From the IMG/VR virus record IMGVR_UViG_2698536505_000016: a stretch of 8,503 bases of DNA; one strand, 5' to 3'. The position numbers were made by a program, and so were the translations under genes. The notes below the pieces were generated by a model that was given only the letters and a program-made list of their open reading frames with translations, had not been told where the DNA came from and searched no databases. The DNA is from a virus. Taxonomy: Monodnaviria; Loebvirae; Hofneiviricota; Faserviricetes; Tubulavirales; Inoviridae. Below, one piece after another: positions 1 to 8,503 of the stretch. How positions within the stretch are numbered: the stretch's first letter is position 1; every line of letters begins with the position of its first letter.

Positions 1-3
1 ATT

Positions 4-36
4 GGTGCGCATAATGTACGACTCGTTATGTTGAAA
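4..36 (+). other. dif-like XerC/XerD recombination site (candidate attP arm)
   Basis: GGTGCGCATAATGTA at 4-18 matches the XerC arm and start of the central region of E. coli dif (GGTGCGCATAATGTATATTATGTTAAAT, from memory); TTATGTTGAAA at 26-36 resembles the XerD arm TTATGTTAAAT (9 of 11), displaced by about 5 extra central nucleotides. Confidence 0.55.
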
Positions 37-75
37 AGGCCGCTGCGAAAATCGAATCCCGCAGCGGCCTCTTTA
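37..75 (-). terminator. Hairpin with 11-bp GC-rich stem; probable intrinsic terminator of the minus-strand operon, possibly bidirectional
   Basis: AGGCCGCTGCG (37-47) pairs with CGCAGCGGCCT (60-70), 12-nt loop; on the minus strand the stem is followed by TTTTC, and it lies just 3' of the ORF ending at 101. Confidence 0.5.
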
Positions 76-100
76 GCATAACGTCATTGTGCGAACCAAT

Positions 101-580
101 TTATATAGAAATGAAAAACTCCTCTTCATTTCTTCTTTTATAATTGTCATCCCATATGAGTTTTATTCGGTATTTAGTTTTACTTCCAAAGCTTATTCCC
201 GCTAAAATTTCAATTCCATGTTGCGGGTGTAATACCTCATATGGAAATTTATCTTCTACATCATGCATTGAAAGATATTCATTTCCATCGTTATCAGGGA
301 AATGAATCTCTATATTTTTAGCCTCAACTCTCCCTCTATTAAATATCTTGAGCCTATAGTTGTTTTTGGCTATTTTTACGAGGCGAGCACCAAGCTCAGC
401 TTTCATCTCATTAATTGCTGACTTTGTTTCTTTTTCCAGAAGCAACTTACGTAACCTGTCTTGCTCATCCTTTATAACCTTTTGTTCTCTATCGCTTTTT
501 CTCGATTTCATTTCTGACGATATGATAGTGTAAATCGATACTACAAGCGCAGCTAAAGCGATGGCATCACTTGTTGTCAT
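101..580 (-). CDS. Hypothetical membrane-anchored protein, 159 aa: N-terminal TM helix, charged coiled-coil-like segment, C-terminal domain of unknown function
   Basis: ATG at 580-578 overlaps the upstream stop as TAATG; AAGGA Shine-Dalgarno 7 nt upstream; hydrophobic N-terminus AIALAALVVSIYTIISS followed by a K/E/R-rich segment; AT-rich coding sequence by eye. Confidence 0.65.
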   Translation of the reverse strand: MTTSDAIALAALVVSIYTIISSEMKSRKSDREQKVIKDEQDRLRKLLLEKETKSAINEMKAELGARLVKIAKNNYRLKIFNRGRVEAKNIEIHFPDNDGNEYLSMHDVEDKFPYEVLHPQHGIEILAGISFGSKTKYRIKLIWDDNYKRRNEEEFFISI

Positions 581-855
581 TATTTGATCCTTATATTCTT
601 ACTTCCCTTAAATGCCTTTTTGAGCATGTCGTTAAACTGTTTTTGAATGTCTTTTGTTAACTCTTCTTTTATTTCATCTACATGAGCGTCAATACTCACC
701 CCGTTTTCTTGGATTAACTCATCATTAGTAAATTCTTTCCCGCAGCCTACACATCTAACGACTTCAGACTCTTCCTCGTGTTCCATCTCTGTATTTCCGC
801 ACACAGGACATAGCAGGGTAATGTTTCTATTGTATTTCTCAGGATTCAGTTTCAT
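580..855 (-). CDS. Small zinc-ribbon protein, 91 aa, with a CPVCG...CVGCG motif resembling YgiT/MqsA-type zinc fingers
   Basis: ATG at 855-853 with GAGAGGA Shine-Dalgarno 5 nt upstream; two CxxC pairs 19 residues apart; stop overlaps the start of the downstream gene. Confidence 0.65.
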   Translation of the reverse strand: MKLNPEKYNRNITLLCPVCGNTEMEHEEESEVVRCVGCGKEFTNDELIQENGVSIDAHVDEIKEELTKDIQKQFNDMLKKAFKGSKNIRIK

Positions 856-883
856 ATGTTTCCTCTCTTCTACGTTTTATTGA

Positions 884-1306
884 TTACCAGTAATATGAAT
901 TTCTTCTGTGCCACCAATAAAGCAGGCCATATCCGACAATAAGAATCCCGAAGAACATCAGAGACATTCCCCAGCCAGTTCCATACCACGAAACCATATC
1001 ATCGAAAACCAGCCCACCCGTTTCACGAACTCCGGCAGCTTCCTTAAGAATTGGCTTGAATACCGGAATCAGAAGGGCGATCGCCAGTGGAGCACCCCAG
1101 CGAATAAGGCCAGTTTCCATTTTGATCCCGAAAAAGATCCCCGCACCGACAACAAGCAGCCAGACTATCAGGCCAGGCGCAGTTTCCAGTGCTGTTTGCC
1201 ATTCAACATCGAAAGTTTTCATTAGCCAGGCAACAACTGCCAGACAGAAAGCAAATACGCCTACAACAACCAGTTCAACGCCGCTTGTTTCGTTATTTCT
1301 ACTCAT
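884..1306 (-). CDS. Hypothetical integral membrane protein, about 140 aa, four predicted TM helices
   Basis: Internal ATG at 1306-1304 with AAGGA about 8 nt upstream; four hydrophobic stretches; the longer reading from 1453 would run through a hairpin and overlap the upstream gene. Confidence 0.55.
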   Translation of the reverse strand: MSRNNETSGVELVVVGVFAFCLAVVAWLMKTFDVEWQTALETAPGLIVWLLVVGAGIFFGIKMETGLIRWGAPLAIALLIPVFKPILKEAAGVRETGGLVFDDMVSWYGTGWGMSLMFFGILIVGYGLLYWWHRRNSYYW

Positions 1307-1339
1307 CCTTTTGATCCTTTGTTGCTGTTCAAAATCCGC

Positions 1340-1377
1340 ACAATAAAGAACGTGCAGTGTAGGTAATACTGCACGTT
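1340..1377 (-). terminator. Hairpin plus T-rich tract between the regulator gene and the membrane-protein gene; terminator or attenuator
   Basis: Perfect 8-bp inverted repeat CGTGCAGT (1351-1358) / ACTGCACG (1368-1375) with 9-nt loop; followed on the minus strand by TTCTTTATTG. Confidence 0.4.
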
Positions 1378-1394
1378 TGTACCATTCGTGGTAC

Positions 1395-1577
1395 TTAATC
1401 CTTTTGTTTGGCAGACATGAGATCTTCTGCTGCATCTTTAGAGTAGTTATCAATCAGATAACCTAAAATCTCTGTCCATGTAATTGTTTTTCCTAGTTTT
1501 ACACTGGCATTTATAGCCAGTCGTTCTAGTTTCATTTTTCTTTCTTCCGTCACGTTATAAGTCGTGCGCTTTGCCAT
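1395..1577 (-). CDS. Putative small DNA-binding regulator, 60 aa, ribbon-helix-helix-like (candidate phage repressor)
   Basis: ATG at 1577; N-terminal short beta-strand-like segment (RTTYNVT) followed by two predicted helices, the pattern of Arc/MetJ/CopG regulators; transcribed divergently from gII. Confidence 0.45.
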   Translation of the reverse strand: MAKRTTYNVTEERKMKLERLAINASVKLGKTITWTEILGYLIDNYSKDAAEDLMSAKQKD

Positions 1578-1746
1578 TTTTTACGCTCGTTCAATGCAAT
1601 ATTTGAAGTGAGTATACATGCTCGTGAACTCATACCATCCAAGCCTCTTGAACTCACTAGCTCACTGGTGTAATGTTAAAACACTAATGAACTACTGAAC
1701 TCATGTGTTAGTAAGTCGTCATTTTTGCAATTTTGAGGATTTATTC
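1578..1746. promoter_or_regulatory. Divergent control region between the regulator gene and gII; contains direct repeats (candidate operators or iterons) and candidate promoters
   Basis: Three 13-nt direct repeats, CTCGTGAACTCAT (1621-1633), CTCTTGAACTCAC (1645-1657), CTACTGAACTCAT (1692-1704), plus partial TGAACTAC (1688-1695); plus-strand TTGAAC (1648-1653), 17-nt spacer, TAATGT (1671-1676); minus-strand TATACT -10-like hexamer (complement of 1611-1616). Confidence 0.4.
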
Positions 1747-2799
1747 GTGATCGATTGGCTTACCGGGATTTTCCCTTGCACACACAAACCGCTTCCGGCG
1801 GGGAGTGTTGTCAGCGTTGATGCTGACGGTGCAATTGAGTGGGAAACCGTTAAGCGACTGACTGTTCGCGGTTCGCATGAAGCAACGATGAAAGTACGAT
1901 CGATAGGATCTAATGGCGAAGGTAAAGCGACACATTTGTACATTGATGGTAATCCTTCCAAGTTTCTGCAGGGGCATTCTGTTGTTGGGTCGGATGATAT
2001 ACAAGGGCTCATGTTGACGGTCTATGCCAGGATTTTATCCTTATTGAATATTCCTCATGATTTAGCGTCTTATAAAGCCGTTATGGCAGGTCAGTATAAA
2101 ATTTCACGTGTTGACATTAATTACATGTATTCATTATCTACGCTGGAAAATGTCAGATCATGGCTTTATGCCGCCGAATTTAAAGCTAAAACACGCCATG
2201 GTCGCGCATGTGGGAAAGGCGGTACAGTTTATTTAGGTAAAAACTCCCGTCGATGGAGTCTGAAATTTTATTCAAAATATGATGAACACGTTTCTGGTAA
2301 AAAAGGGCACCAGATAGCCGAAGAGTTTGTACGAGCCGGGTTACTGGACTGGACGAAAGATAAATTACGTATTGAATTAACATTAAGAACAACTGAGCTT
2401 ATTGATTTAAATTTAACGCTTGGCGCTAACTGGAATATGAAAACACCACGTCAATTATTCTCTGAATATGTAGGGAGAATAGAAATGAATCAGAATGCTA
2501 TTTTAAGTGATGAAAAAATAACGAAACTGCCAAGAAAAATACAGTCAACTTATTTACTTTGGAAACAAGGGGCTAACATGAAAGAAATGTTACCTCATAA
2601 CACTTTTTATCGCCATAGAAGAGAATTGCTTTCGTTCGGTATCGATATTAATTTCTATTGTGATTCACCAGACTCTAATAACGTTGTTCCGCTAATAAGA
2701 ACGCTGGAAGCCAAGCCAGCGGAAATCCCCTTATGGATTTATGAGAAAGGTTTTATTTTCGATTACAACCGTATTTCGCACGCCAGTAGCTGGCATTAA
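1747..2799 (+). CDS. gII: Replication initiation protein pII (rolling-circle nickase), about 350 aa
   Basis: GTG start at 1747 preceded by GAGGA (1735-1739); product then begins MIDWLTGIFP, like M13 pII (MIDMLVLRLPF); internal motifs GNPSKFLQGHSVVG and NNVVPL resemble M13 pII. The ORF track start at 1705 is also GTG, with no Shine-Dalgarno. Confidence 0.85.
   Translation: MIDWLTGIFPCTHKPLPAGSVVSVDADGAIEWETVKRLTVRGSHEATMKVRSIGSNGEGKATHLYIDGNPSKFLQGHSVVGSDDIQGLMLTVYARILSLLNIPHDLASYKAVMAGQYKISRVDINYMYSLSTLENVRSWLYAAEFKAKTRHGRACGKGGTVYLGKNSRRWSLKFYSKYDEHVSGKKGHQIAEEFVRAGLLDWTKDKLRIELTLRTTELIDLNLTLGANWNMKTPRQLFSEYVGRIEMNQNAILSDEKITKLPRKIQSTYLLWKQGANMKEMLPHNTFYRHRRELLSFGIDINFYCDSPDSNNVVPLIRTLEAKPAEIPLWIYEKGFIFDYNRISHASSWH
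2485..2799 (+). CDS. gX: Candidate gene X product: in-frame internal start within gII giving its C-terminal 104 aa
   Basis: ATG at 2485 preceded by AGGGAG (2472-2477) at 7-nt spacing; Ff phages make pX from an internal start in gII of similar size (111 aa in M13). Confidence 0.4.
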   Translation: MNQNAILSDEKITKLPRKIQSTYLLWKQGANMKEMLPHNTFYRHRRELLSFGIDINFYCDSPDSNNVVPLIRTLEAKPAEIPLWIYEKGFIFDYNRISHASSWH

Positions 2800-2810
2800 A
2801 GGAAAGTAAT

Positions 2811-3128
2811 ATGTCTAATTATGGTCTTTTCGTTAAGGGTAAAATGTTGGGAGCCCGCCAACGTAATAAAGTTAATGGTCAGGGCTATTATAATGAAATT
2901 GGTATTGGCCTTGAAATACCTGATGGTTTTGGTGGTACAAAGCAGGATCAAATTATTATTCGAGTTTCTCAGGCTCTCGTTAACGCAGGTCTAATGAACC
3001 AGGCGAATGCTTTCATTGGGAAATTAGTTCAAATTCCTGTCTATGTCCGTGCGTGGTCAATGGAGGGTAGGGAAGGTGTAACTTATAATGTTGCTTCCGA
3101 TGGTGGCATCGCAGAGATCAAAGGTTAA
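2811..3128 (+). CDS. Gene-V-position protein, 105 aa; putative ssDNA-binding protein by synteny, divergent from Ff gVp
   Basis: ATG at 2811 with GGAAAG Shine-Dalgarno directly after the gII stop; sits between gII and gVII; little obvious similarity to M13 gVp by eye. Confidence 0.5.
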   Translation: MSNYGLFVKGKMLGARQRNKVNGQGYYNEIGIGLEIPDGFGGTKQDQIIIRVSQALVNAGLMNQANAFIGKLVQIPVYVRAWSMEGREGVTYNVASDGGIAEIKG

Positions 3129-3130
3129 AT

Positions 3131-3217
3131 ATGGACGATGTTATTCAAATTTTGATAGCGTCTGGCATCGTTATTTCTTTTGGCCTCGGCGCGATTACTG
3201 CGGGGGTCTTTCGTTAA
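3131..3217 (+). CDS. gVII: Minor coat protein pVII, 28 aa, hydrophobic
   Basis: ATG at 3131 with AAGG upstream; product MDDVIQILIASGIVISFGLGAITAGVFR resembles M13 pVII in size and C-terminus; stop overlaps the next start as TAATG. Confidence 0.55.
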   Translation: MDDVIQILIASGIVISFGLGAITAGVFR

Positions 3218-3312
3218 TGTATATCGTTTATTTCTTCGGGGCTTATACCTTTGGTTTTGCCCTTTTCTATGCGGTCGGTTCATTTAAATCATTTTCTGAC
3301 CGATTAATGTAA
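3217..3312 (+). CDS. gIX: Minor coat protein pIX, 31 aa, hydrophobic
   Basis: ATG at 3217 overlapping the gVII stop; product MYIVYFFGAYTFGFALFYAVGSFKSFSDRLM; size and position match Ff pIX. Confidence 0.55.
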   Translation: MYIVYFFGAYTFGFALFYAVGSFKSFSDRLM

Positions 3313-3331
3313 ACTTAATGGAGTTATTCCT

Positions 3332-3574
3332 ATGAAAATTCTGTCTACTGTTAAATATAAAATTGCTCTGGCTTCAACTGCGCTTTTTATTTCTGCAAGT
3401 TCTTTTGCGGCTGAAGGCGCTACAGGTGGTACTGATTATGCAGGTCAGGCAATGGATGCTTTGTTGACTCAGGCAAATGATCTCATTGGTAAAGTATGGC
3501 CTGTTGTTGTTGCTGTGGTTGGCGCTGGGCTTGCCATTCGTATTTTCAAAAAATTCTCTTCAAAAGCGGTTTGA
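3332..3574 (+). CDS. gVIII: Major coat protein pVIII precursor, 80 aa, signal peptide plus about 54-aa mature protein
   Basis: GGAG Shine-Dalgarno 8 nt upstream; likely cleavage at SFA/AEG; mature C-terminus ...[13 protein letters not shown] closely matches IKe/M13 coat protein (...LFKKF(S/T)SKA) from memory. Confidence 0.9.
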
Positions 3575-3582
3575 ATTTCACT

Positions 3583-3608
3583 CAGGGGCACTCGTTGCCC
3601 CTTTATTA
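3583..3608 (+). terminator. Rho-independent terminator after gVIII
   Basis: 7-bp stem AGGGGCA / TGCCCCT with 5-nt loop, followed by TTTATT; same position as the central terminator of Ff phages. Confidence 0.7.
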
Positions 3609-3620
3609 AAGCGGGTTACT

Positions 3621-4931
3621 ATGAGAAGGAAAATATTAATTCTTTCCGCTGTCCTCATTTCTCCTTTTTCACATGCTGAGTCATGGGAAAGCATTACTAA
3701 ATCCACTTATCAAAGTTCTGCCTACGCTGAAAGTAAGCAAATAACCAATCAGGATGGCTCTAAGATAACGGTTTACTATATTGATGCTGCTATGCAGGCC
3801 TCCGCTTGTCAGGGTGCTAAATCCAGTGCTCAGAGTGTATTTACTCGGATTAAACCAACTTATGAGGGTATCTGGCCTGATTCTGAATTCCGTCTTGTTT
3901 TTACTGGCGATTGTACTTACAGCGATTCACCAGGGCAGAAGGATAAATATTGGTCTTTAACGGCTTATATTGTTGGTAATATTCAGCGTTCTGTTCCTGA
4001 TGAAAAACCTACTGACCCGACACCAGAAGAAATTTGTGAAGCGAAGCCGCCAGAAGAAGGTGTATTTAATAATGTTGATTCATATGATGGTGGTCGCTAT
4101 ATCTACTATAACGGCTGTGAATATGAGGCTACTGGTGTCATTGTTTGTCAGGGTGATGGTACTGTTTGCGCTGCAACATGGAAGCCTACAGGTGCTGTAG
4201 CTGACCCCTCTGATAAACCCTCACCCCCCCAAAATGGTGGTGGTGAGTCCGGCGGTGGTGAGTCCAGCGGTGGTGAGTCCGGTGGTGGTGAGTCCGGTGG
4301 TGGTGAGTCCGGTGGTGGTGAGTCCGGCGGTGGTGAGTCCGGTGGTGGTGAGTCCGGCGGTGGTGAGTCCGGTGGCGGTAGTTCTGGCGGTGGCTCTAGT
4401 GGTTCCAGTCTTTCTAAAGGTGATATTCAGTCTGCGATCGAAGGTGCTTCACCCAAAATAGCCAGCGATATTCATGATAAATTAACGGAGAAAGACACTT
4501 CATCAGATGATAAAAAAAATGCCGATGAACAAACCAGGAATAATATAAATCGTCTTGACGATTCCATTAACAATCTTACGCGGGGGGCTGGCCGTTTTGC
4601 TGACCCTTCAGGTGGTGATTCTCGTTATGGAAAGGGCGACTCTGAATTAGATGGCGCTTCTACTTTAGCTGATTCTGAATTGGGAATTGAAAAGGATTCT
4701 CACGGTGCTTTATGGGAAGCATTTTTAAATAAAGGTGCTATGCTGCCTAATTTACCCAATGGTAACGGCTGCTCTGATTTTATTATTTTTCCCGGAGAGA
4801 TTTATCAGATTGATATTGGTTGCGATAAATTACTGACTATTAAAGATGTTCTTTCATGGGTTTTTTATTGCCTTACGTTCTGGTATGTCTTTACTTCTTT
4901 AACTTCATTGCTTCGCAAAGGGGGTGAGTGA
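3621..4931 (+). CDS. gIII: Adsorption/minor coat protein pIII, 436 aa: signal peptide, Cys-containing N-terminal domains, (GGGES)n linker, C-terminal membrane anchor
   Basis: ATG at 3621 after the terminator (track start 3477 overlaps gVIII); C-terminus ...[36 protein letters not shown] resembles the M13 pIII anchor; glycine-rich linker typical of pIII. Confidence 0.85.
4236..4400 (+). repeat. Tandem 15-bp repeat array inside gIII, about 9 near-perfect and 2 degenerate units, encoding (GGGES)n
   Basis: GG(T/C)GGTGGTGAGTCC repeated head-to-tail from 4236 to 4370, in frame with gIII, then two degenerate units to 4400. Confidence 0.9.
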
Positions 4932-5272
4932 TGCCTTTATTATTAGGTATTCCTGCATTGTTGCGTTTTCTTATTGGTCTTGTTCCTTTGTTTATTGGCT
5001 ATGTGGCGAGTTTTTTAGCTCGACTTGCTACCAGAACAGGATTAATCGCCTTTGCATTGGTCGCATTAATTACAACAACTGTTACGCTTTTAATGCAGTA
5101 CCTTGCTGAGGTCATGTATAACGGTTTACCTGCTGATTTCTCCCATTTAATGGCGTCTGTATTGCCTGACCATTTTCAGGCGTGTGTTAACGTTATTATG
5201 GTTACTCGTATCAGTGTTTTTGTTTTCGATTTAAAACAAAAATTTCTTGATTATGCAAACAGGGTGATTTAA
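4931..5272 (+). CDS. gVI: Minor coat protein pVI, 113 aa
   Basis: ATG at 4931 overlaps the gIII stop (TGATG); [14 protein letters not shown]... and ...FVFDLKQKF... resemble M13 pVI (MPVLLGIPLLLRFL..., ...FIFDVKQKI...). Confidence 0.9.
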   Translation: MPLLLGIPALLRFLIGLVPLFIGYVASFLARLATRTGLIAFALVALITTTVTLLMQYLAEVMYNGLPADFSHLMASVLPDHFQACVNVIMVTRISVFVFDLKQKFLDYANRVI

Positions 5273-6367
5273 ATGGCGGTTTATGTAGTAACAGGCAAAT
5301 TAGGCTCAGGCAAGACACTTGTTAGTGTTTCCAGAATACAGGAAAGACTTGCTAAGGGTTGTCCTGTTGCCACTAATCTTGATCTTAAATTGCATAATAT
5401 GCCTATGGTTGGGCGTTATGCGAAAAAAACGCGCGTTATTCGCATTCCTGACAAGCCTTCATTAAATGATTTACTTGCTATTGGTATTGGGAATACATCT
5501 TACGATGAATCCCGTAATGGCCTCCTTGTACTTGATGAATGTGGTACTTGGTTTAATTCCCGCTCATGGGGTGATAAAGACAGACAACCTGTTATTGACT
5601 GGTTTTTACATGCCAGAAAATTAGGCTGGGATATTATATTTTTGATTCAGGATATTTCGATAATGGATAAGCAAGCTCGTCTGGCGCTTGCTGAGCATGT
5701 TGTTTATTGTCGCCGTTCAGATAAATTAAACATTCCTTTTGTTGGCTCCATTATGAATTTGGTTTCAGGGGCGAGATTTTCTTTACCAAAGGTACACTTT
5801 GGCATTGTCAAATATGGTGATAATGTTAATTCAATCACTGTTGATAAATGGATATATACAGGAAAATCTCTTTATTCTGCTTACAATACCAAACAAGCGT
5901 TCACAGATAATTATCCTCATGGCGCATTTTCGCTTTTGCCACCATTTATCACGCACGGTCAATTTTCTGTTCACAGAGGATTTAGTTATTATATGCGCCT
6001 CACTAAAATTTATTTTCGCAAATCGAACCGTCTTATATTAATGCTTTCTTTTTTGGCGCTGGGGCTTGCGTTTGGTTTCTGGCTCCAGTCTGGAAAGAAT
6101 GTTGATGAAATCTCAGCTATTAAATCTGCTTATGCTGAACAGGCGAGGGCGGTAACGCCTGATTCGTCCAGTGACTTACCCCGACTTTCTATTAATTCTT
6201 TTTCACAACTTGGCTTTGACGTTTCCGTTACGTTTGTTGATGCAAAAGGCATGAAATATCAGTATTTTGATTTGATTAAAGATGGTTATTCCGTTGATAT
6301 TAAAGATGCCTGTCGTGTTGTTATTAGAAAAGGCCGTTATTTACAGACTGTTACCTGTCAGGAGTAA
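5273..6367 (+). CDS. gI: Assembly ATPase pI (Zot-like), 364 aa, Walker A GKLGSGKT
   Basis: Start abuts the gVI stop; N-terminal about 160 aa is highly similar to M13 pI (MAVYFVTGKLGSGKTLVSV..., LLVLDECGTWFN..., AEHVVYCRR...). Confidence 0.95.
   Translation: MAVYVVTGKLGSGKTLVSVSRIQERLAKGCPVATNLDLKLHNMPMVGRYAKKTRVIRIPDKPSLNDLLAIGIGNTSYDESRNGLLVLDECGTWFNSRSWGDKDRQPVIDWFLHARKLGWDIIFLIQDISIMDKQARLALAEHVVYCRRSDKLNIPFVGSIMNLVSGARFSLPKVHFGIVKYGDNVNSITVDKWIYTGKSLYSAYNTKQAFTDNYPHGAFSLLPPFITHGQFSVHRGFSYYMRLTKIYFRKSNRLILMLSFLALGLAFGFWLQSGKNVDEISAIKSAYAEQARAVTPDSSSDLPRLSINSFSQLGFDVSVTFVDAKGMKYQYFDLIKDGYSVDIKDACRVVIRKGRYLQTVTCQE
5993..6367 (+). CDS. gXI: Candidate pXI: in-frame internal start at Met241 of pI
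   Basis: ATG at 5993 is Met241 of pI, the same position as the pXI start in M13, immediately before the predicted TM segment (MRLTKIYFRK...). Confidence 0.45.
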   Translation: MRLTKIYFRKSNRLILMLSFLALGLAFGFWLQSGKNVDEISAIKSAYAEQARAVTPDSSSDLPRLSINSFSQLGFDVSVTFVDAKGMKYQYFDLIKDGYSVDIKDACRVVIRKGRYLQTVTCQE

Positions 6368-6374
6368 TATTATT

Positions 6375-7640
6375 ATGCGCTCTGTTATTGTTGCTTTTTT
6401 ATTTGCCTGTTCATTCTGCGTTTCTGCTGAAACTGTTAATTTAAATAATTCATCTGTTCGCTCATTTGTTCAGTGGTATTCTTCAAAAACTGGCAAGCCT
6501 GTTATTGTTAATCCTGATATTAAAGGAAACGTAACCGTATTTAATGCTGATGTTAATCCAACAAATATTGATGATTTCTTTAAGTCTGTTCTGAATGCTA
6601 ACGGTTTTGTCATGCTTTCTGGCAATCCTGCGGTAGTCTCTTTGCCGTCTAAATTACCTTCACAGATGGTTTCGGATTCCGATGATTCTGATAACCAGTC
6701 TTATGATACTTTTCCTTCTGAGCCATCTTACCAGCCAGTACCTGTGGCGCTTACGGTCAGAAATTTTAAGCTGACAAAAGTTAGATCGTCCGATGTTCAG
6801 CAACTGATTAAAATTTATCTTGATTCTAATGGTGGTGGTAATGTCGTGGATTATCCAGGCAATAACTCGCTGATTGTTTCTGCGCCTGACGAGCTGCTGC
6901 CGGTTCTGTCCGATTTTATCAATTCTGTGGATGTTGCCCGCGATCAGGTTCTCATTCAGTCGCTGATGTTTGAAACCAGCTTGTCTGATGGCGTTGATTT
7001 ATCGTTTGCGGCAGGTTCTGCATCCGGTCATAAGGTTGCGGGGGGCTTTAATACTTCTGCACTGGGTAGCGCTCTTTCTACGGCGGGCGGTTCTTTTGGT
7101 ATTTTTGATGGTAACGTGTTGGCGCTGTCTCTGCGTGCTGTCCAGAGTAATTCACGCTCTAAGGTGATTTCAACGCCGCGTATTCTTACTCAGTCTGGTC
7201 AGACTGGTTACATTTCCGTAGGTAAGAATGTGCCGTTTATCACCGGAAAGGTAACGGGCGAATCTGCCGGGGTAAATAATCCGTTTCAGACTATCGAGCG
7301 TCATGATGTTGGCGTTTCTCTCAAGGTAACGCCTGTTGTCATGGGTAACGGGCAACTAGTTCTGACTATCGACACTCGCGCTGATTCAATCAGCAATGAT
7401 GATCAGGCATCCGATATTATTACTAATCAGCGCCAGATTCAGACGACAGTCCAGATTAAGGATGGTCAGACGTTGTTATTGGGAGGGCTTATCGATTCAT
7501 CGTTAAGCAATGCCGAGCGTTCAGTTCCAGTTATAAGTAAAATTCCTCTTATAGGCTGGATTTTCAGTAGCAAGGCAGACAGCAATGAACAGCGTATTAT
7601 GTATATTTTGCTTACAGCACATATCATTCGTCCACTTTGA
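6375..7640 (+). CDS. gIV: Outer-membrane secretin pIV precursor, 421 aa
   Basis: ATG at 6375 with GGAG at 6361-6364 (track start 6282 overlaps gI); signal peptide MRSVIVAFLFACSFCVSA; long conserved stretches match M13 pIV (e.g. PRILTLSGQ.G.ISVG.NVPFITG.VTGESA.VNNPFQTIER, TLLLGGL, KIPLIG). Confidence 0.95.
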   Translation: MRSVIVAFLFACSFCVSAETVNLNNSSVRSFVQWYSSKTGKPVIVNPDIKGNVTVFNADVNPTNIDDFFKSVLNANGFVMLSGNPAVVSLPSKLPSQMVSDSDDSDNQSYDTFPSEPSYQPVPVALTVRNFKLTKVRSSDVQQLIKIYLDSNGGGNVVDYPGNNSLIVSAPDELLPVLSDFINSVDVARDQVLIQSLMFETSLSDGVDLSFAAGSASGHKVAGGFNTSALGSALSTAGGSFGIFDGNVLALSLRAVQSNSRSKVISTPRILTQSGQTGYISVGKNVPFITGKVTGESAGVNNPFQTIERHDVGVSLKVTPVVMGNGQLVLTIDTRADSISNDDQASDIITNQRQIQTTVQIKDGQTLLLGGLIDSSLSNAERSVPVISKIPLIGWIFSSKADSNEQRIMYILLTAHIIRPL

Positions 7641-7682
7641 TGGATAGCGGGTAGGTGCGTGAGCCCTGCTCGCTATCCATCA
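7638..7682 (+). other. Long hairpin starting at the gIV stop codon; candidate packaging signal or origin-associated structure
   Basis: Perfect 12-bp inverted repeat TGATGGATAGCG (7638-7649) / CGCTATCCATCA (7671-7682), extendable to about 18 bp with two G-T wobbles, 9-nt loop; no T-run follows. Ff packaging signal is a hairpin just after gIV. Confidence 0.45.
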
Positions 7683-7709
7683 AATGGACATTATTGATTG
7701 GGGTAACTA

Positions 7710-8018
7710 ATGGATTCTTATGGGATTTTATCTGCTCTGGCAGAACGAACGATTACAGCGGAAGAAGCAAAAACAATGACACTTGCAGCCAGAAGTTCTT
7801 CGGCTCAGGTAAATGAAGCATCACTTGCTCTGTTACTGATTGATAATACTCTGGATGCGATCAAAGCAGCTGCCAGTGAAGGGAAAGGATACACTTTACT
7901 TCCTTCTTATGAGATTTCTGTAAAAGCCATTGATTTAGCAGAAGAATTTTTAAGGAAACAATGCGGCTATGTTATTGATAACCAGAATGGCGTAAGGACG
8001 GTCTATTGGTTTATATGA
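7710..8018 (+). CDS. Hypothetical protein, 102 aa, predicted mostly helical, no recognised motif
   Basis: ATG at 7710 with a weak G-rich Shine-Dalgarno; lies between gIV and the att region where Ff phages have only non-coding sequence. Confidence 0.5.
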   Translation: MDSYGILSALAERTITAEEAKTMTLAARSSSAQVNEASLALLLIDNTLDAIKAAASEGKGYTLLPSYEISVKAIDLAEEFLRKQCGYVIDNQNGVRTVYWFI

Positions 8019-8135
8019 TAACCCCGGACAATGACAAAACTTGCTTTTGTTAGTGTCAGGGGTTGGCCAAGCCGAACAATTCTGTTTTTTTAGCGTTATT
8101 GCTGATTCGGCGCGGCAGCATTACGAGGAGATAAA

Positions 8136-8369
8136 ATGCAATTTTTCACATCCAGCGATACTGTAATGTTATGTGCGAAGACCTGCGATCGCTGTGGTCG
8201 CCATGCGAAGACGGTGGTAGATGACATTGAGTTCAATGAGTTTCTGTCTGTTAATCACTTAGCTGGATACGGTTCAATTTTTGGTGACAGTAATCGCTTA
8301 AAACTGGATTTATGCCAACATTGCCTGAAAGACGTCCTGGGCCAGTGGATTACGGTCTGTGACCAATGA
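8136..8369 (+). CDS. Hypothetical small cysteine-rich protein, 77 aa, putative zinc-binding
   Basis: Strong GAGGAG Shine-Dalgarno 5 nt upstream of ATG at 8136; CxxC pairs at residues 17/20 and 61/64; followed by the att hairpin. Confidence 0.55.
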   Translation: MQFFTSSDTVMLCAKTCDRCGRHAKTVVDDIEFNEFLSVNHLAGYGSIFGDSNRLKLDLCQHCLKDVLGQWITVCDQ

Positions 8370-8407
8370 CGGCACCGGTAACGCCAGTTCCCGCCATCCT
8401 TACCATT

Positions 8408-8440
8408 GGTGCGCATAATGTACGACTCGTTATGTTGAAA
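8408..8440 (+). other. dif-like XerC/XerD recombination site, second copy
   Basis: Same sequence as 4-36. Confidence 0.55.
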
Positions 8441-8479
8441 AGGCCGCTGCGAAAATCGAATCCCGCAGCGGCCTCTTTA
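8441..8479 (+). terminator. Same hairpin, second copy, downstream of the 8136-8369 ORF; candidate plus-strand terminator
   Basis: Identical stem-loop followed by TCTTT on the plus strand; located about 70 nt after the stop at 8369. Confidence 0.35.
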
Positions 8480-8503
8480 GCATAACGTCATTGTGCGAAC
8501 CAA

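What the first reader, a model, noticed from the sequence alone, without database searches (positions are those of the whole stretch)
1..100. Terminal repeat is a roughly 100-nt imperfect palindrome with dif-like arms: candidate folded single-stranded attP for XerCD integration in an Ff/IKe-like coliphage
The left half carries an exact match to the XerC arm of E. coli dif (GGTGCGCATAA, as I recall it) and a XerD-arm-like TTATGTTGAAA, but with about 11 nt between the arms instead of 6. The right half (71-100) is an imperfect inverted copy: 1-17 pairs with 84-100 and 24-35 with 72-83, while 18-23 (ACGACT) has no partner, and a perfect 11-bp hairpin (37-70) forms the tip. Folded as plus-strand ssDNA this gives a duplex with dif-like arms and an asymmetric central bulge, the known strategy of CTXphi. 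Ff-class phages are classically non-integrating, so a dif-type att plus a repressor-like gene would make this a temperate relative.
Basis: partly seen in the sequence, partly recalled or inferred. Interest (0 to 1): 0.8.

Follow-up and report, generated by a model that had tools for sequence, protein, structure and literature searches.

The report
Folded dif-like phage attachment site

Summary
Window 1-100 holds two dif-like sites in inverted orientation. Site 1 (+ strand) is GGTGCGCATAA / 11 nt / TTATGTTGAAA. Site 2 (- strand) is GGTTCGCACAA / 5 nt / TTATGCTAAAG. A perfect 11-bp hairpin lies between them. As ssDNA the region folds at -30.9 kcal/mol (z = -8.4) into paired XerC and XerD arms around a 7x1-nt internal loop.

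The window is an 8404-nt circular unit with a 99-nt terminal overlap. The phage has IKe-like structural genes and YpfPhi-like gII/gV, which matches the published UPPhi group.

In complete E. coli genomes it lies at dif beside hipBA. attL is the host XerC arm joined to the phage 11-nt spacer. attR is an intact 28-bp dif. Tandem copies are common, and the crossover maps to the XerC arm/spacer border. This is the CTXphi-type design.

The 100 nt are identical to the YpfPhi junction in Yersinia pestis, where the inverted XerC/XerD pair was already described. Reviews list YpfPhi and CUS-1 as CTX-type.

The side observation with the most novelty potential is that bases 27-100 also sit inside dif-targeting IS1202-family insertion sequences, next to a variable cargo gene.

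The parts
1..100 (+). attP: imperfect palindrome holding two inverted dif-like sites and a tip hairpin. Predicted to fold in the packaged (+) ssDNA.
   Evidence: Identical to the YpfPhi tandem junction in Y. pestis (L105).
4..14 (+). Site 1 XerC-binding arm GGTGCGCATAA (11/11 to E. coli dif). Predicted XerC cleavage after A14.
   Evidence: The crossover is bracketed by host versus phage arm variants at attL and the tandem junction.
15..25 (+). Site 1 spacer, 11 nt (TGTACGACTCG). TGTA matches the XerC side of the dif central region TGTATA. The XerD side has no homology. 17-23 are unpaired in the fold.
26..36 (+). Site 1 XerD-like arm TTATGTTGAAA (9/11). Invariant in all 35 aligned relatives.
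37..70 (+). Tip hairpin: perfect 11-bp G+C-rich stem with a 12-nt loop. The stem is nearly invariant and the loop variable among relatives. On the minus strand it is followed by TTTTC, so it may also terminate the leftward cargo genes (inferred).
71..97 (-). Site 2, read on the minus strand: XerC-like arm GGTTCGCACAA (87-97), 5-nt spacer TGACG (82-86), XerD-like arm TTATGCTAAAG (71-81). It supplies the complementary strand of the folded site.
8405..8503 (+). Second copy of bases 1-99 (terminal overlap of a circular or tandem unit).
101..883 (-). Variable cargo slot directly abutting the palindrome. Here it holds a 159-aa ORF and a 91-aa ECs_2282-family CxxC protein. It is replaced by other genes in otherwise 97-99% identical prophages.

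Best explanation
Bases 1-100 are the attP of a temperate filamentous phage that encodes no integrase. The phage is UPPhi-type, with an IKe-like virion and assembly module and a YpfPhi-like replication module.

Proposed mechanism: in the packaged (+) ssDNA, site 1 (4-36) base-pairs with the inverted site 2 (71-97). This creates a duplex XerC-binding arm and a duplex XerD-binding arm, separated by an asymmetric internal loop of 7 nt opposite 1 nt and closed by the 37-70 hairpin. Host XerC and XerD bind this dif mimic and synapse it with chromosomal dif. XerC cleaves after A14 and exchanges one strand pair. The exchange is stabilised because the phage TGTA is identical to the first four bases of the dif central region. 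XerD cannot complete the reaction, because the XerD side of the spacer has no homology. The junction is therefore resolved by replication.

The result is a prophage with a dead attL (host XerC arm, then the 11-nt spacer) and a regenerated dif at attR. Integration is effectively one-way, and new phage genomes arise by rolling-circle replication across tandem copies.

Shown here: the anatomy, the fold prediction, the dif location, the junction sequences, the crossover interval, the tandem arrays and an episomal relative. Inferred from CTXphi: ssDNA as the substrate, XerC-only catalysis and resolution by replication.
For: Fold: -30.9 kcal/mol, z = -8.4, stable in a 400-nt context.

Arm matches are far above chance.

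Prophages at hipBA-dif: in TUM13936 attL reads host ..GGTTTATGTT|GGTGCGCATAATGTA|CGACTCGTTATGTTGAAA, and attR is phage ..CCTTACTATT followed by the intact dif GGTGCGCATAA TGTATA TTATGTTAAAT. The same attR occurs in UM146 and AF22.

Crossover interval: in Y. pestis, attL carries GGTGCACATAA while the tandem junction carries the phage GGTGCGCATAA. In E. coli 503025, attL carries GGTG.. while the tandem junction carries the phage AGTG... The exchange therefore lies between XerC-arm position 6 and spacer position 4.

Frequency: the phage end joined to intact dif is found in 164 of 5426 E. coli genomes. A phage-to-phage attP junction is found in 98 genomes.

A related inovirus occurs as a circular 9565-bp episome with the complete palindrome (L008).

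Neither site is a normal duplex Xer site, since the spacers are 11 and 5 bp against 6 bp in dif.

Generality: 65 of 69 unique long-spacer sites from 88 viral contigs have an inverted partner that pairs arm-to-arm in the minimum-energy fold, and the partner's spacer is always shorter (by 4-6 nt in 65 of 66).

Covariation: the outer stem, including 3 nt outside the XerC arm, changes on both sides (ATTG..CAAT versus GCCA..TGGC). Six pairs carry double changes, and 94% of cells are paired against 29-52% when the partner columns are slid.

No recombinase gene appears among the annotated or profiled ORFs.

Literature: CTXphi attP1 has a 12-bp spacer, attP2 has 5-7 bp, and the two are inverted (PMC4246890). 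[quoted passage not shown] YpfPhi and CUS-1 are listed as CTX-type.
Against: No experiment on this sequence was available. The junction sequences alone would also fit XerC exchange on duplex site 1 (the VGJphi style).

Most stem positions are invariant among relatives, so they say nothing either way. Many aligned sequences are attL hybrids and share ancestry, so the covariation statistics are weak.

The distal half of the XerD-arm duplex is poorly paired (pair probability 0.27-0.45 plus an A.C mismatch).

The review notes that YpfPhi stays mostly extrachromosomal when transduced into E. coli in the laboratory.
Confidence: 0.85

Rival explanations
1. Duplex attP (VGJphi type): the replicative form recombines with dif through site 1 as double-stranded DNA, XerC exchanges one strand pair, and site 2 and the hairpin are irrelevant to integration.
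For: The attL and attR sequences are the ones this route would also give. The XerC arm is perfect and TGTA homology is present.
Against: The 11-bp spacer is far from the 6-bp dif spacer, and the review states that CTXphi attP1, with 12 bp, is unsuitable as a duplex. An inverted partner site with a shorter spacer accompanies 65 of 69 such sites, although the search did not ask for one. Compensatory changes extend outside the XerC arm. Tandem arrays are frequent, as expected for non-excising prophages.
Confidence: 0.08
2. The palindrome is mainly a different cis element of the phage, such as a packaging signal, a complementary-strand origin or a bidirectional transcription terminator, and the dif-like arms only mark where integration happened.
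For: The tip hairpin is G+C-rich and followed by TTTTC on the minus strand, just downstream of the leftward cargo genes. It holds the same position downstream of the passenger gene in the IS-borne copies. Its stem is conserved in sequence rather than by covariation.
Against: A separate strong hairpin lies directly after gIV at 7630-7689 (-24.5 kcal/mol, z = -8.8), where IKe has its morphogenetic signal. A terminator does not explain two dif-like sites paired arm-to-arm. A secondary terminator role for 37-70 is compatible with the main explanation.
Confidence: 0.05
3. Assembly artefact: the terminal repeat and palindrome come from mis-joined reads at a hairpin.
For: The 99-nt overlap starts on the first base of the palindrome. 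That is an odd coincidence, and 99 is a common assembler k-mer length.
Against: The same 100 nt occur inside complete, independently assembled genomes: 230 E. coli genomes cover at least 80% of it. It also occurs in Y. pestis and eight other genera.
Confidence: 0.01

Closest known systems
YpfPhi (Yersinia pestis) and CUS-1 (E. coli O18:K1:H7) filamentous prophages
   Same: The attP is identical over bases 1-101 to the YpfPhi tandem junction (L105). gII is 86% and gV 93% identical in amino acids. Both integrate at dif, regenerate dif at attR, form tandem copies, carry variable accessory ORFs next to attL, and carry two small ORFs next to attR.
   Different: The virion, assembly and secretin genes are unrelated or distant (gIV 27%, no hits for the others). 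The cargo genes differ.
UPPhi phages (Virus Evol 2020, PMC7307601)
   Same: An IKe/I2-2-like structural module, YpfPhi-like genes II and V, dif integration, reverse-oriented ORFs just after the dif-like site, two extra ORFs in the former intergenic region, and a glycine-rich repeat in g3p. The window is most likely a member of this group.
   Different: I could not align the window to the UPPhi901 sequence itself. That paper speaks only of 'a copy of the dif site': the words hairpin, inverted and attP do not occur in it.
CTXphi attP(+) of Vibrio cholerae
   Same: Two inverted dif-like sites, one with an over-long spacer (12 bp against 11 here) and one with a short spacer (5-7 against 5). Both show homology to dif only on the XerC side, a regenerated dif, tandem prophages and no integrase.
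   Different: The sites are 34 nt apart here against about 90. The sequences, host and phage backbone are unrelated. XerC-only catalysis and the ssDNA substrate are demonstrated for CTXphi but not for this sequence.
VGJphi-type IMEX
   Same: Uses host XerCD at dif, with the first exchange by XerC.
   Different: VGJphi has a single 29-bp duplex site and excises. Here there are two inverted sites with 11- and 5-bp spacers.
IKe / Ff coliphages
   Same: Gene order and 51-69% amino-acid identity of gVIII, gIII, gVI, gI and gIV. Both have a hairpin after gIV.
   Different: IKe has no dif-like site, no leftward cargo or regulatory genes, and a different gII. It does not integrate.

Membership tests
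CTX-type IMEX (integrative mobile element exploiting Xer, folded-ssDNA class) | No element-encoded integrase | tested here: met
   No recombinase appears among the annotated prophage genes or the profiled ORFs.
CTX-type IMEX (integrative mobile element exploiting Xer, folded-ssDNA class) | Integrated at the chromosomal dif site | tested here: met
   The prophage lies next to hipBA with dif at its right end. The phage-end/dif junction occurs in 164 genomes.
CTX-type IMEX (integrative mobile element exploiting Xer, folded-ssDNA class) | Two dif-like sites in inverted orientation, one with an over-long spacer and one with a short spacer | tested here: met
   Spacers of 11 nt and 5 nt. CTXphi has 12 and 5-7.
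CTX-type IMEX (integrative mobile element exploiting Xer, folded-ssDNA class) | The (+) strand folds so that the two sites form duplex XerC and XerD arms around an unpaired centre | tested here: met
   Prediction only. Covariation in the outer stem.
CTX-type IMEX (integrative mobile element exploiting Xer, folded-ssDNA class) | Crossover at the XerC arm/spacer border, with homology to dif only on the XerC side | tested here: met
   TGTA is shared, and the XerD side (TCG against ATA) is not. The crossover is bracketed by arm variants.
CTX-type IMEX (integrative mobile element exploiting Xer, folded-ssDNA class) | dif regenerated at attR, non-canonical attL, and tandem prophages as the source of new genomes | tested here: met
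   Intact 28-bp dif at attR. Tandem junctions in 98 genomes. That phage is produced from the tandems was not tested.
CTX-type IMEX (integrative mobile element exploiting Xer, folded-ssDNA class) | ssDNA is the recombination substrate; XerC catalysis is required and XerD catalysis is not | not testable with these tools
   Needs in vitro or in vivo recombination assays.
UPPhi group (Lineavirus-related, dif-integrating) | IKe/I2-2-like structural genes together with YpfPhi-like genes II and V | tested here: met
UPPhi group (Lineavirus-related, dif-integrating) | At least 75% nucleotide identity to UPPhi901 (the paper's own criterion) | not tested
VGJ-type IMEX | Single duplex dif-like site with a 6-7 bp spacer, flanked after integration by two compatible sites | tested here: not met
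   Spacers are 11 and 5 bp, and there are two inverted sites.

The most novel reading that the evidence does not exclude
The right three quarters of the palindrome (27-100: XerD-like arm, tip hairpin, inverted site 2) may be a portable module that marks one fixed edge of a gene-cargo slot.

This slot is shared between at least four unrelated inovirus backbones and dif-hunting IS1202-family transporter insertion sequences on hundreds of E. coli plasmids. Defence-like and toxin genes (SIR2, PD-(D/E)XK, Doc, STM4504/CBY_0614, CxxC proteins) would be swapped at this edge. That would link filamentous phages, dif/xrs-targeting IS and plasmid Xer sites into one exchange network, perhaps through Xer or hairpin-directed recombination at site 2.

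The sharing itself is observed. The functional link is speculative, and I do not know whether it has been reported.
Probability: 0.25. Interest if true: 0.55.

Novelty: already known. Interest (0 to 1): 0.25.

Why it matters
This is a clean sequence-only recognition of how an integrase-less ssDNA phage hijacks the chromosome-dimer resolution machinery.

It also makes explicit something the UPPhi paper did not state: IKe-like coliphages carry the same CTX-type folded attP as the plague phage YpfPhi. This attP type is found in phages of at least ten genera of Enterobacterales.

The practical value lies in annotating prophage ends at dif and in explaining the tandem arrays seen there. It is not a new mechanism. 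The IS1202/attP cargo-slot link is the only part that might add something new.

Tried and rejected
(1) Phage collection: megablast of the whole unit found only a 190-nt gIV stretch shared with IKe and PEar. Distant blastn of the attP, and of a Vibrio-type attP from a viral contig, found nothing. I therefore could not align against CTXphi itself and relied on the review's description.

(2) I first took the phage for CUS-1, because UM146 belongs to the O18:K1 lineage. I rejected this after tblastn showed IKe-like structural genes and only gII/gV shared with YpfPhi.

(3) Repressor claim: Pfam, NCBIfam and PHROGs gave no repressor or HTH hit for the four leftward ORFs.

(4) The terminator scan did not flag the tip hairpin, whose loop exceeds the scan's 3-8 nt limit.

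(5) I tried to derive the IS-borne half-attP from a simple history of IS insertion next to site 1, site 2, attL or attR. None of these reproduces the observed order (IS end, XerD-like arm, hairpin, site 2, cargo, transposase, IS end), so its origin is left open.

(6) I could not explain why the 99-nt overlap starts exactly at the palindrome. A de Bruijn unitig bounded by the attL, attP and attR branch points would span about 2-8422, which is not what is seen.

Full report
**The observation**

The window is one 8404-nt unit plus a 99-nt overlap: 1-99 equals 8405-8503. Bases 1-100 read ATT GGTGCGCATAA TGTACGACTCG TTATGTTGAAA, then a hairpin, then CTTTAGCATAA CGTCA TTGTGCGAACC AAT.

Site 1 lies on the + strand at 4-36. 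It has a perfect E. coli dif XerC arm, an 11-nt spacer and a 9/11 XerD arm. Read on the minus strand, 71-97 is a second site, GGTTCGCACAA TGACG TTATGCTAAAG, scoring 9/11 and 9/11 with a 5-nt spacer.

A scan for dif-like arm pairs scores the two sites 20/22 and 18/22. In 300 dinucleotide-preserving shuffles of the unit, the best score was 18, and that occurred only twice.

As single-stranded DNA, 1-100 folds at -30.9 kcal/mol (shuffles -12.4 +/- 2.2, z = -8.4). In the fold, 1-16 pairs with 85-100, 24-36 with 71-83, and 37-47 with 60-70, while 17-23 lie opposite a single T84. The structure survives in a 400-nt context, with pair probability about 0.9 for the XerC-arm stem and 0.99 for the tip.

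**The element that carries it**

The + strand encodes gII (Phage_CRI and G2P_X_C domains), gV, gVII, gVIII, gIII, gVI, gI and a secretin gIV. Four ORFs point leftward between the palindrome and gII. Two small ORFs lie between gIV and the palindrome.

The structural and assembly proteins are 51-69% identical to those of IKe. gII and gV are 86% and 93% identical to those of YpfPhi in Yersinia pestis NCTC5923. This mosaic is what the UPPhi paper describes (PMC7307601): IKe/I2-2-like phages with YpfPhi-like genes II and V that integrate at dif. My first guess, CUS-1, was wrong.

A separate strong hairpin directly after gIV (7630-7689, -24.5 kcal/mol, z = -8.8) occupies the position of IKe's morphogenetic signal. 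The 1-100 palindrome is therefore not the packaging signal.

**Where the phage sits in genomes**

- Forty-seven complete E. coli genomes hold at least 80% of the unit at 98-99.6% identity.
- In UM146, TUM13936, AF22, WL297 and SCU-118 the prophage, or the tandem prophage array it belongs to, lies beside hipBA and ends at dif.
- In TUM13936, attL is host flank ..GGTTTATGTT, then GGTGCGCATAATGTA, then the phage-specific CGACTCGTTATGTTGAAA. attR is phage ..CCTTACTATT followed by an intact GGTGCGCATAA TGTATA TTATGTTAAAT.
- In AF22 two copies are in tandem, and the joint between them is the complete palindrome.
- A query made of the phage right end fused to intact dif is covered in 164 of 5426 genomes.
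- A query made of the phage right end fused to site 1 with its phage spacer is covered in 98 genomes, almost all on chromosomes.
- A YpfPhi-like relative exists as a circular 9565-bp episome carrying the full palindrome (L008).

**The crossover point**

- In Y. pestis, attL has the arm GGTGCACATAA, while the phage-to-phage junction has GGTGCGCATAA.
- In E. coli 503025, which carries an unrelated inovirus, attL has GGTG.. while the tandem junction has the phage's AGTG...
- Phage and dif spacers diverge after TGTA.

The exchange therefore falls between XerC-arm position 6 and spacer position 4. This interval contains the canonical XerC cleavage site after A14.

The junction is at site 1, which has XerC-spacer-XerD polarity on the strand that is co-linear with the genes. 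In inoviruses that is the packaged strand (established knowledge, not tested here). A folded minus strand would have used site 2 and given the opposite prophage orientation.

**Folded ssDNA or duplex?**

The junctions alone cannot decide this. Three lines of evidence favour the folded form.

1. Neither site is a normal duplex Xer site: the spacers are 11 and 5 bp against 6 bp in dif. The review of Vibrio IMEXs states that CTXphi attP1 (12 bp) and attP2 (5-7 bp) are each unusable as duplexes and work only when paired within the (+) strand (PMC4246890).

2. I scanned viral contigs for only a XerC half-arm, a 9-13 nt spacer starting TGT, and TTATGTT. This returned 88 contigs. Of 69 unique sites, 65 have an inverted partner that pairs arm-to-arm in the minimum-energy DNA fold, although the search did not ask for a partner. 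The partner's spacer is always shorter, by 4-6 nt in 65 of 66 cases. Two size classes appear: an enterobacterial class (10-11/5 nt, about 100 nt in all) and a Vibrio-like class (12-13/6-7 nt, about 160 nt).

3. Among 35 enterobacterial-type sequences, 94% of pair cells are standard pairs, against 29-52% when the 3' partner columns are slid. Six pairs carry changes on both sides. The clearest case is ATTG..CAAT in the window against GCCA..TGGC in the 503025 phage. That is four consecutive compensatory pairs, three of them outside the XerC arm, where a duplex Xer site would impose no constraint.

There are caveats. Most stem columns never vary. Many rows are attL hybrids whose left end is host DNA. 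The sequences are related by descent.

**How it most likely works**

The (+) ssDNA folds, and XerC and XerD bind the two imperfect duplex arms. XerC cleaves after A14 and exchanges one strand with dif. The identical TGTA lets the invading strand pair. The XerD side of the spacer has no homology, so the intermediate is resolved by replication.

The result is a non-functional attL, a regenerated dif and no excision. New genomes come from rolling-circle replication across tandem copies, which fits the frequency of tandems. The steps after folding are inferred from CTXphi.

**What is already known**

- Two papers from the Xer field list YpfPhi and CUS-1 as CTX-type or CTX-related elements.
- The window's 100 nt are identical to the YpfPhi junction.

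The reading is therefore correct but published. The only gap is that the UPPhi paper mentions just 'a copy of the dif site'. I found no report of a direct recombination assay on this enterobacterial attP in the papers I read.

**Host range of this attP type**

The core (XerD-like arm plus hairpin stem) occurs in representative genomes of Yersinia pestis, Photorhabdus, Pectobacterium, Kluyvera, Lelliottia, Kosakonia, Izhakiella, Rosenbergiella and Pantoea.

Within E. coli it serves at least four unrelated inovirus backbones, at 84-95% attP identity to the window: the window type, the YpfPhi-like L008, L009 with a Rep_trans-type initiator, and L010.

**Side finding: the half-attP inside insertion sequences**

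Bases 27-100 occur at about 93% identity in some 485 places on E. coli plasmids and in chromosomes, with no phage attached.

In plasmid ET625 and chromosome AR_0006, the piece lies inside a unit of about 2.8 kb bounded by TGT...ACA ends with roughly 50-nt imperfect inverted repeats. The internal order is IS end, XerD-like arm, hairpin, site 2, a cargo gene (STM4504/CBY_0614 or SIR2), an ISNCY/IS1202-family transposase, IS end.

The transposase-proximal end lies 5 bp from the XerC arm of chromosomal dif, or 5 bp from a plasmid dif-like site, CTTACGTATAA TCTATC TTATGTTAAAT. That is the published behaviour of the dif-hunting IS1202 family, including the passenger-carrying tISKpn21 (PMC10132070 and bioRxiv 10.1101/2022.12.17.520857).

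In both phages and IS, the cargo slot starts exactly where the palindrome ends. In the window the slot is 101-883, and it is replaced in otherwise 97-99% identical prophages. The two IS1202 papers call the passengers 'unrelated' and do not mention a phage attP. I could not reconstruct how the piece entered the IS.

**Verdict**

The feature is real and correctly interpreted, and it is a member of a known and published kind. Interest is low, apart from the IS/cargo-slot link.

Noticed in passing
window 27-100; L004 3951-6762; L005 3951-6712: The XerD-like arm, tip hairpin and inverted site 2 occur at about 93% identity inside IS1202-family (ISNCY) transporter insertion sequences. These sit 5 bp from the XerC arm of dif or of a plasmid dif-like site. 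There are about 485 plasmid places in E. coli, and one in Pantoea (L101). Similarity to the phage begins at window 26/27, the spacer/XerD-arm border.
   Followed up: partly
window 101-883: A variable cargo slot abuts the palindrome. Otherwise near-identical prophages carry STM4504/CBY_0614, a Doc-family toxin, PD-(D/E)XK nuclease or CxxC proteins here, and the IS-borne copies carry SIR2 or STM4504. Many of these look like defence or toxin genes.
   Followed up: partly
window 37-70 and alignment A2 columns 37-70: The 10-11 bp G+C-rich tip stem (GGCCGCTGCG/CGCAGCGGCC) is almost invariant across unrelated phage backbones, while its 12-nt loop varies freely. This is conservation of sequence rather than of pairing only, and I have no explanation for it. 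A terminator role or a protein-binding role are both possible.
   Followed up: no
window 1-99 and 8405-8503: The terminal overlap is exactly 99 nt and starts on the first base of the palindrome. The length suggests an assembler k-mer overlap, but I could not explain why it is in register with the palindrome.
   Followed up: partly
window 7630-7689: A strong hairpin (20-bp arms, -24.5 kcal/mol, z = -8.8) lies immediately after gIV, where IKe has its morphogenetic (packaging) signal.
   Followed up: partly
window 4191-4415: Eleven or so tandem 15-nt repeats encode GGGES-type linker repeats in g3p. g3p length differs between otherwise identical prophages (410, 416, 430 and 434 aa).
   Followed up: no
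E. coli EC5502, NZ_CP092647.1 (hits H10, H101, H110): There are 15-17 places per genome for the phage and its junctions, spanning the record origin. This suggests a tandem array of about 15 prophage copies (roughly 120 kb) at dif.
   Followed up: no
L001 2780-3010 (UM146, left of the prophage): The RefSeq record has dense N/ambiguity codes over the hipA 3' end. The readable bases resemble a mix of host flank and phage right end, so this is probably a collapsed tandem copy in that assembly.
   Followed up: no
L010 10001-10099 and 19000-19098: Two different long-spacer attL-type sites lie 9 kb apart at one dif locus. This suggests successive integration of different elements, each at the dif regenerated by the previous one.
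   Followed up: no
L103 and L112 (genome contigs): Contigs carrying this phage with an E. coli hipA-dif flank are binned into MAGs labelled Candidatus Nanosynbacter and Ruminococcaceae. This is most likely a binning error.
   Followed up: no
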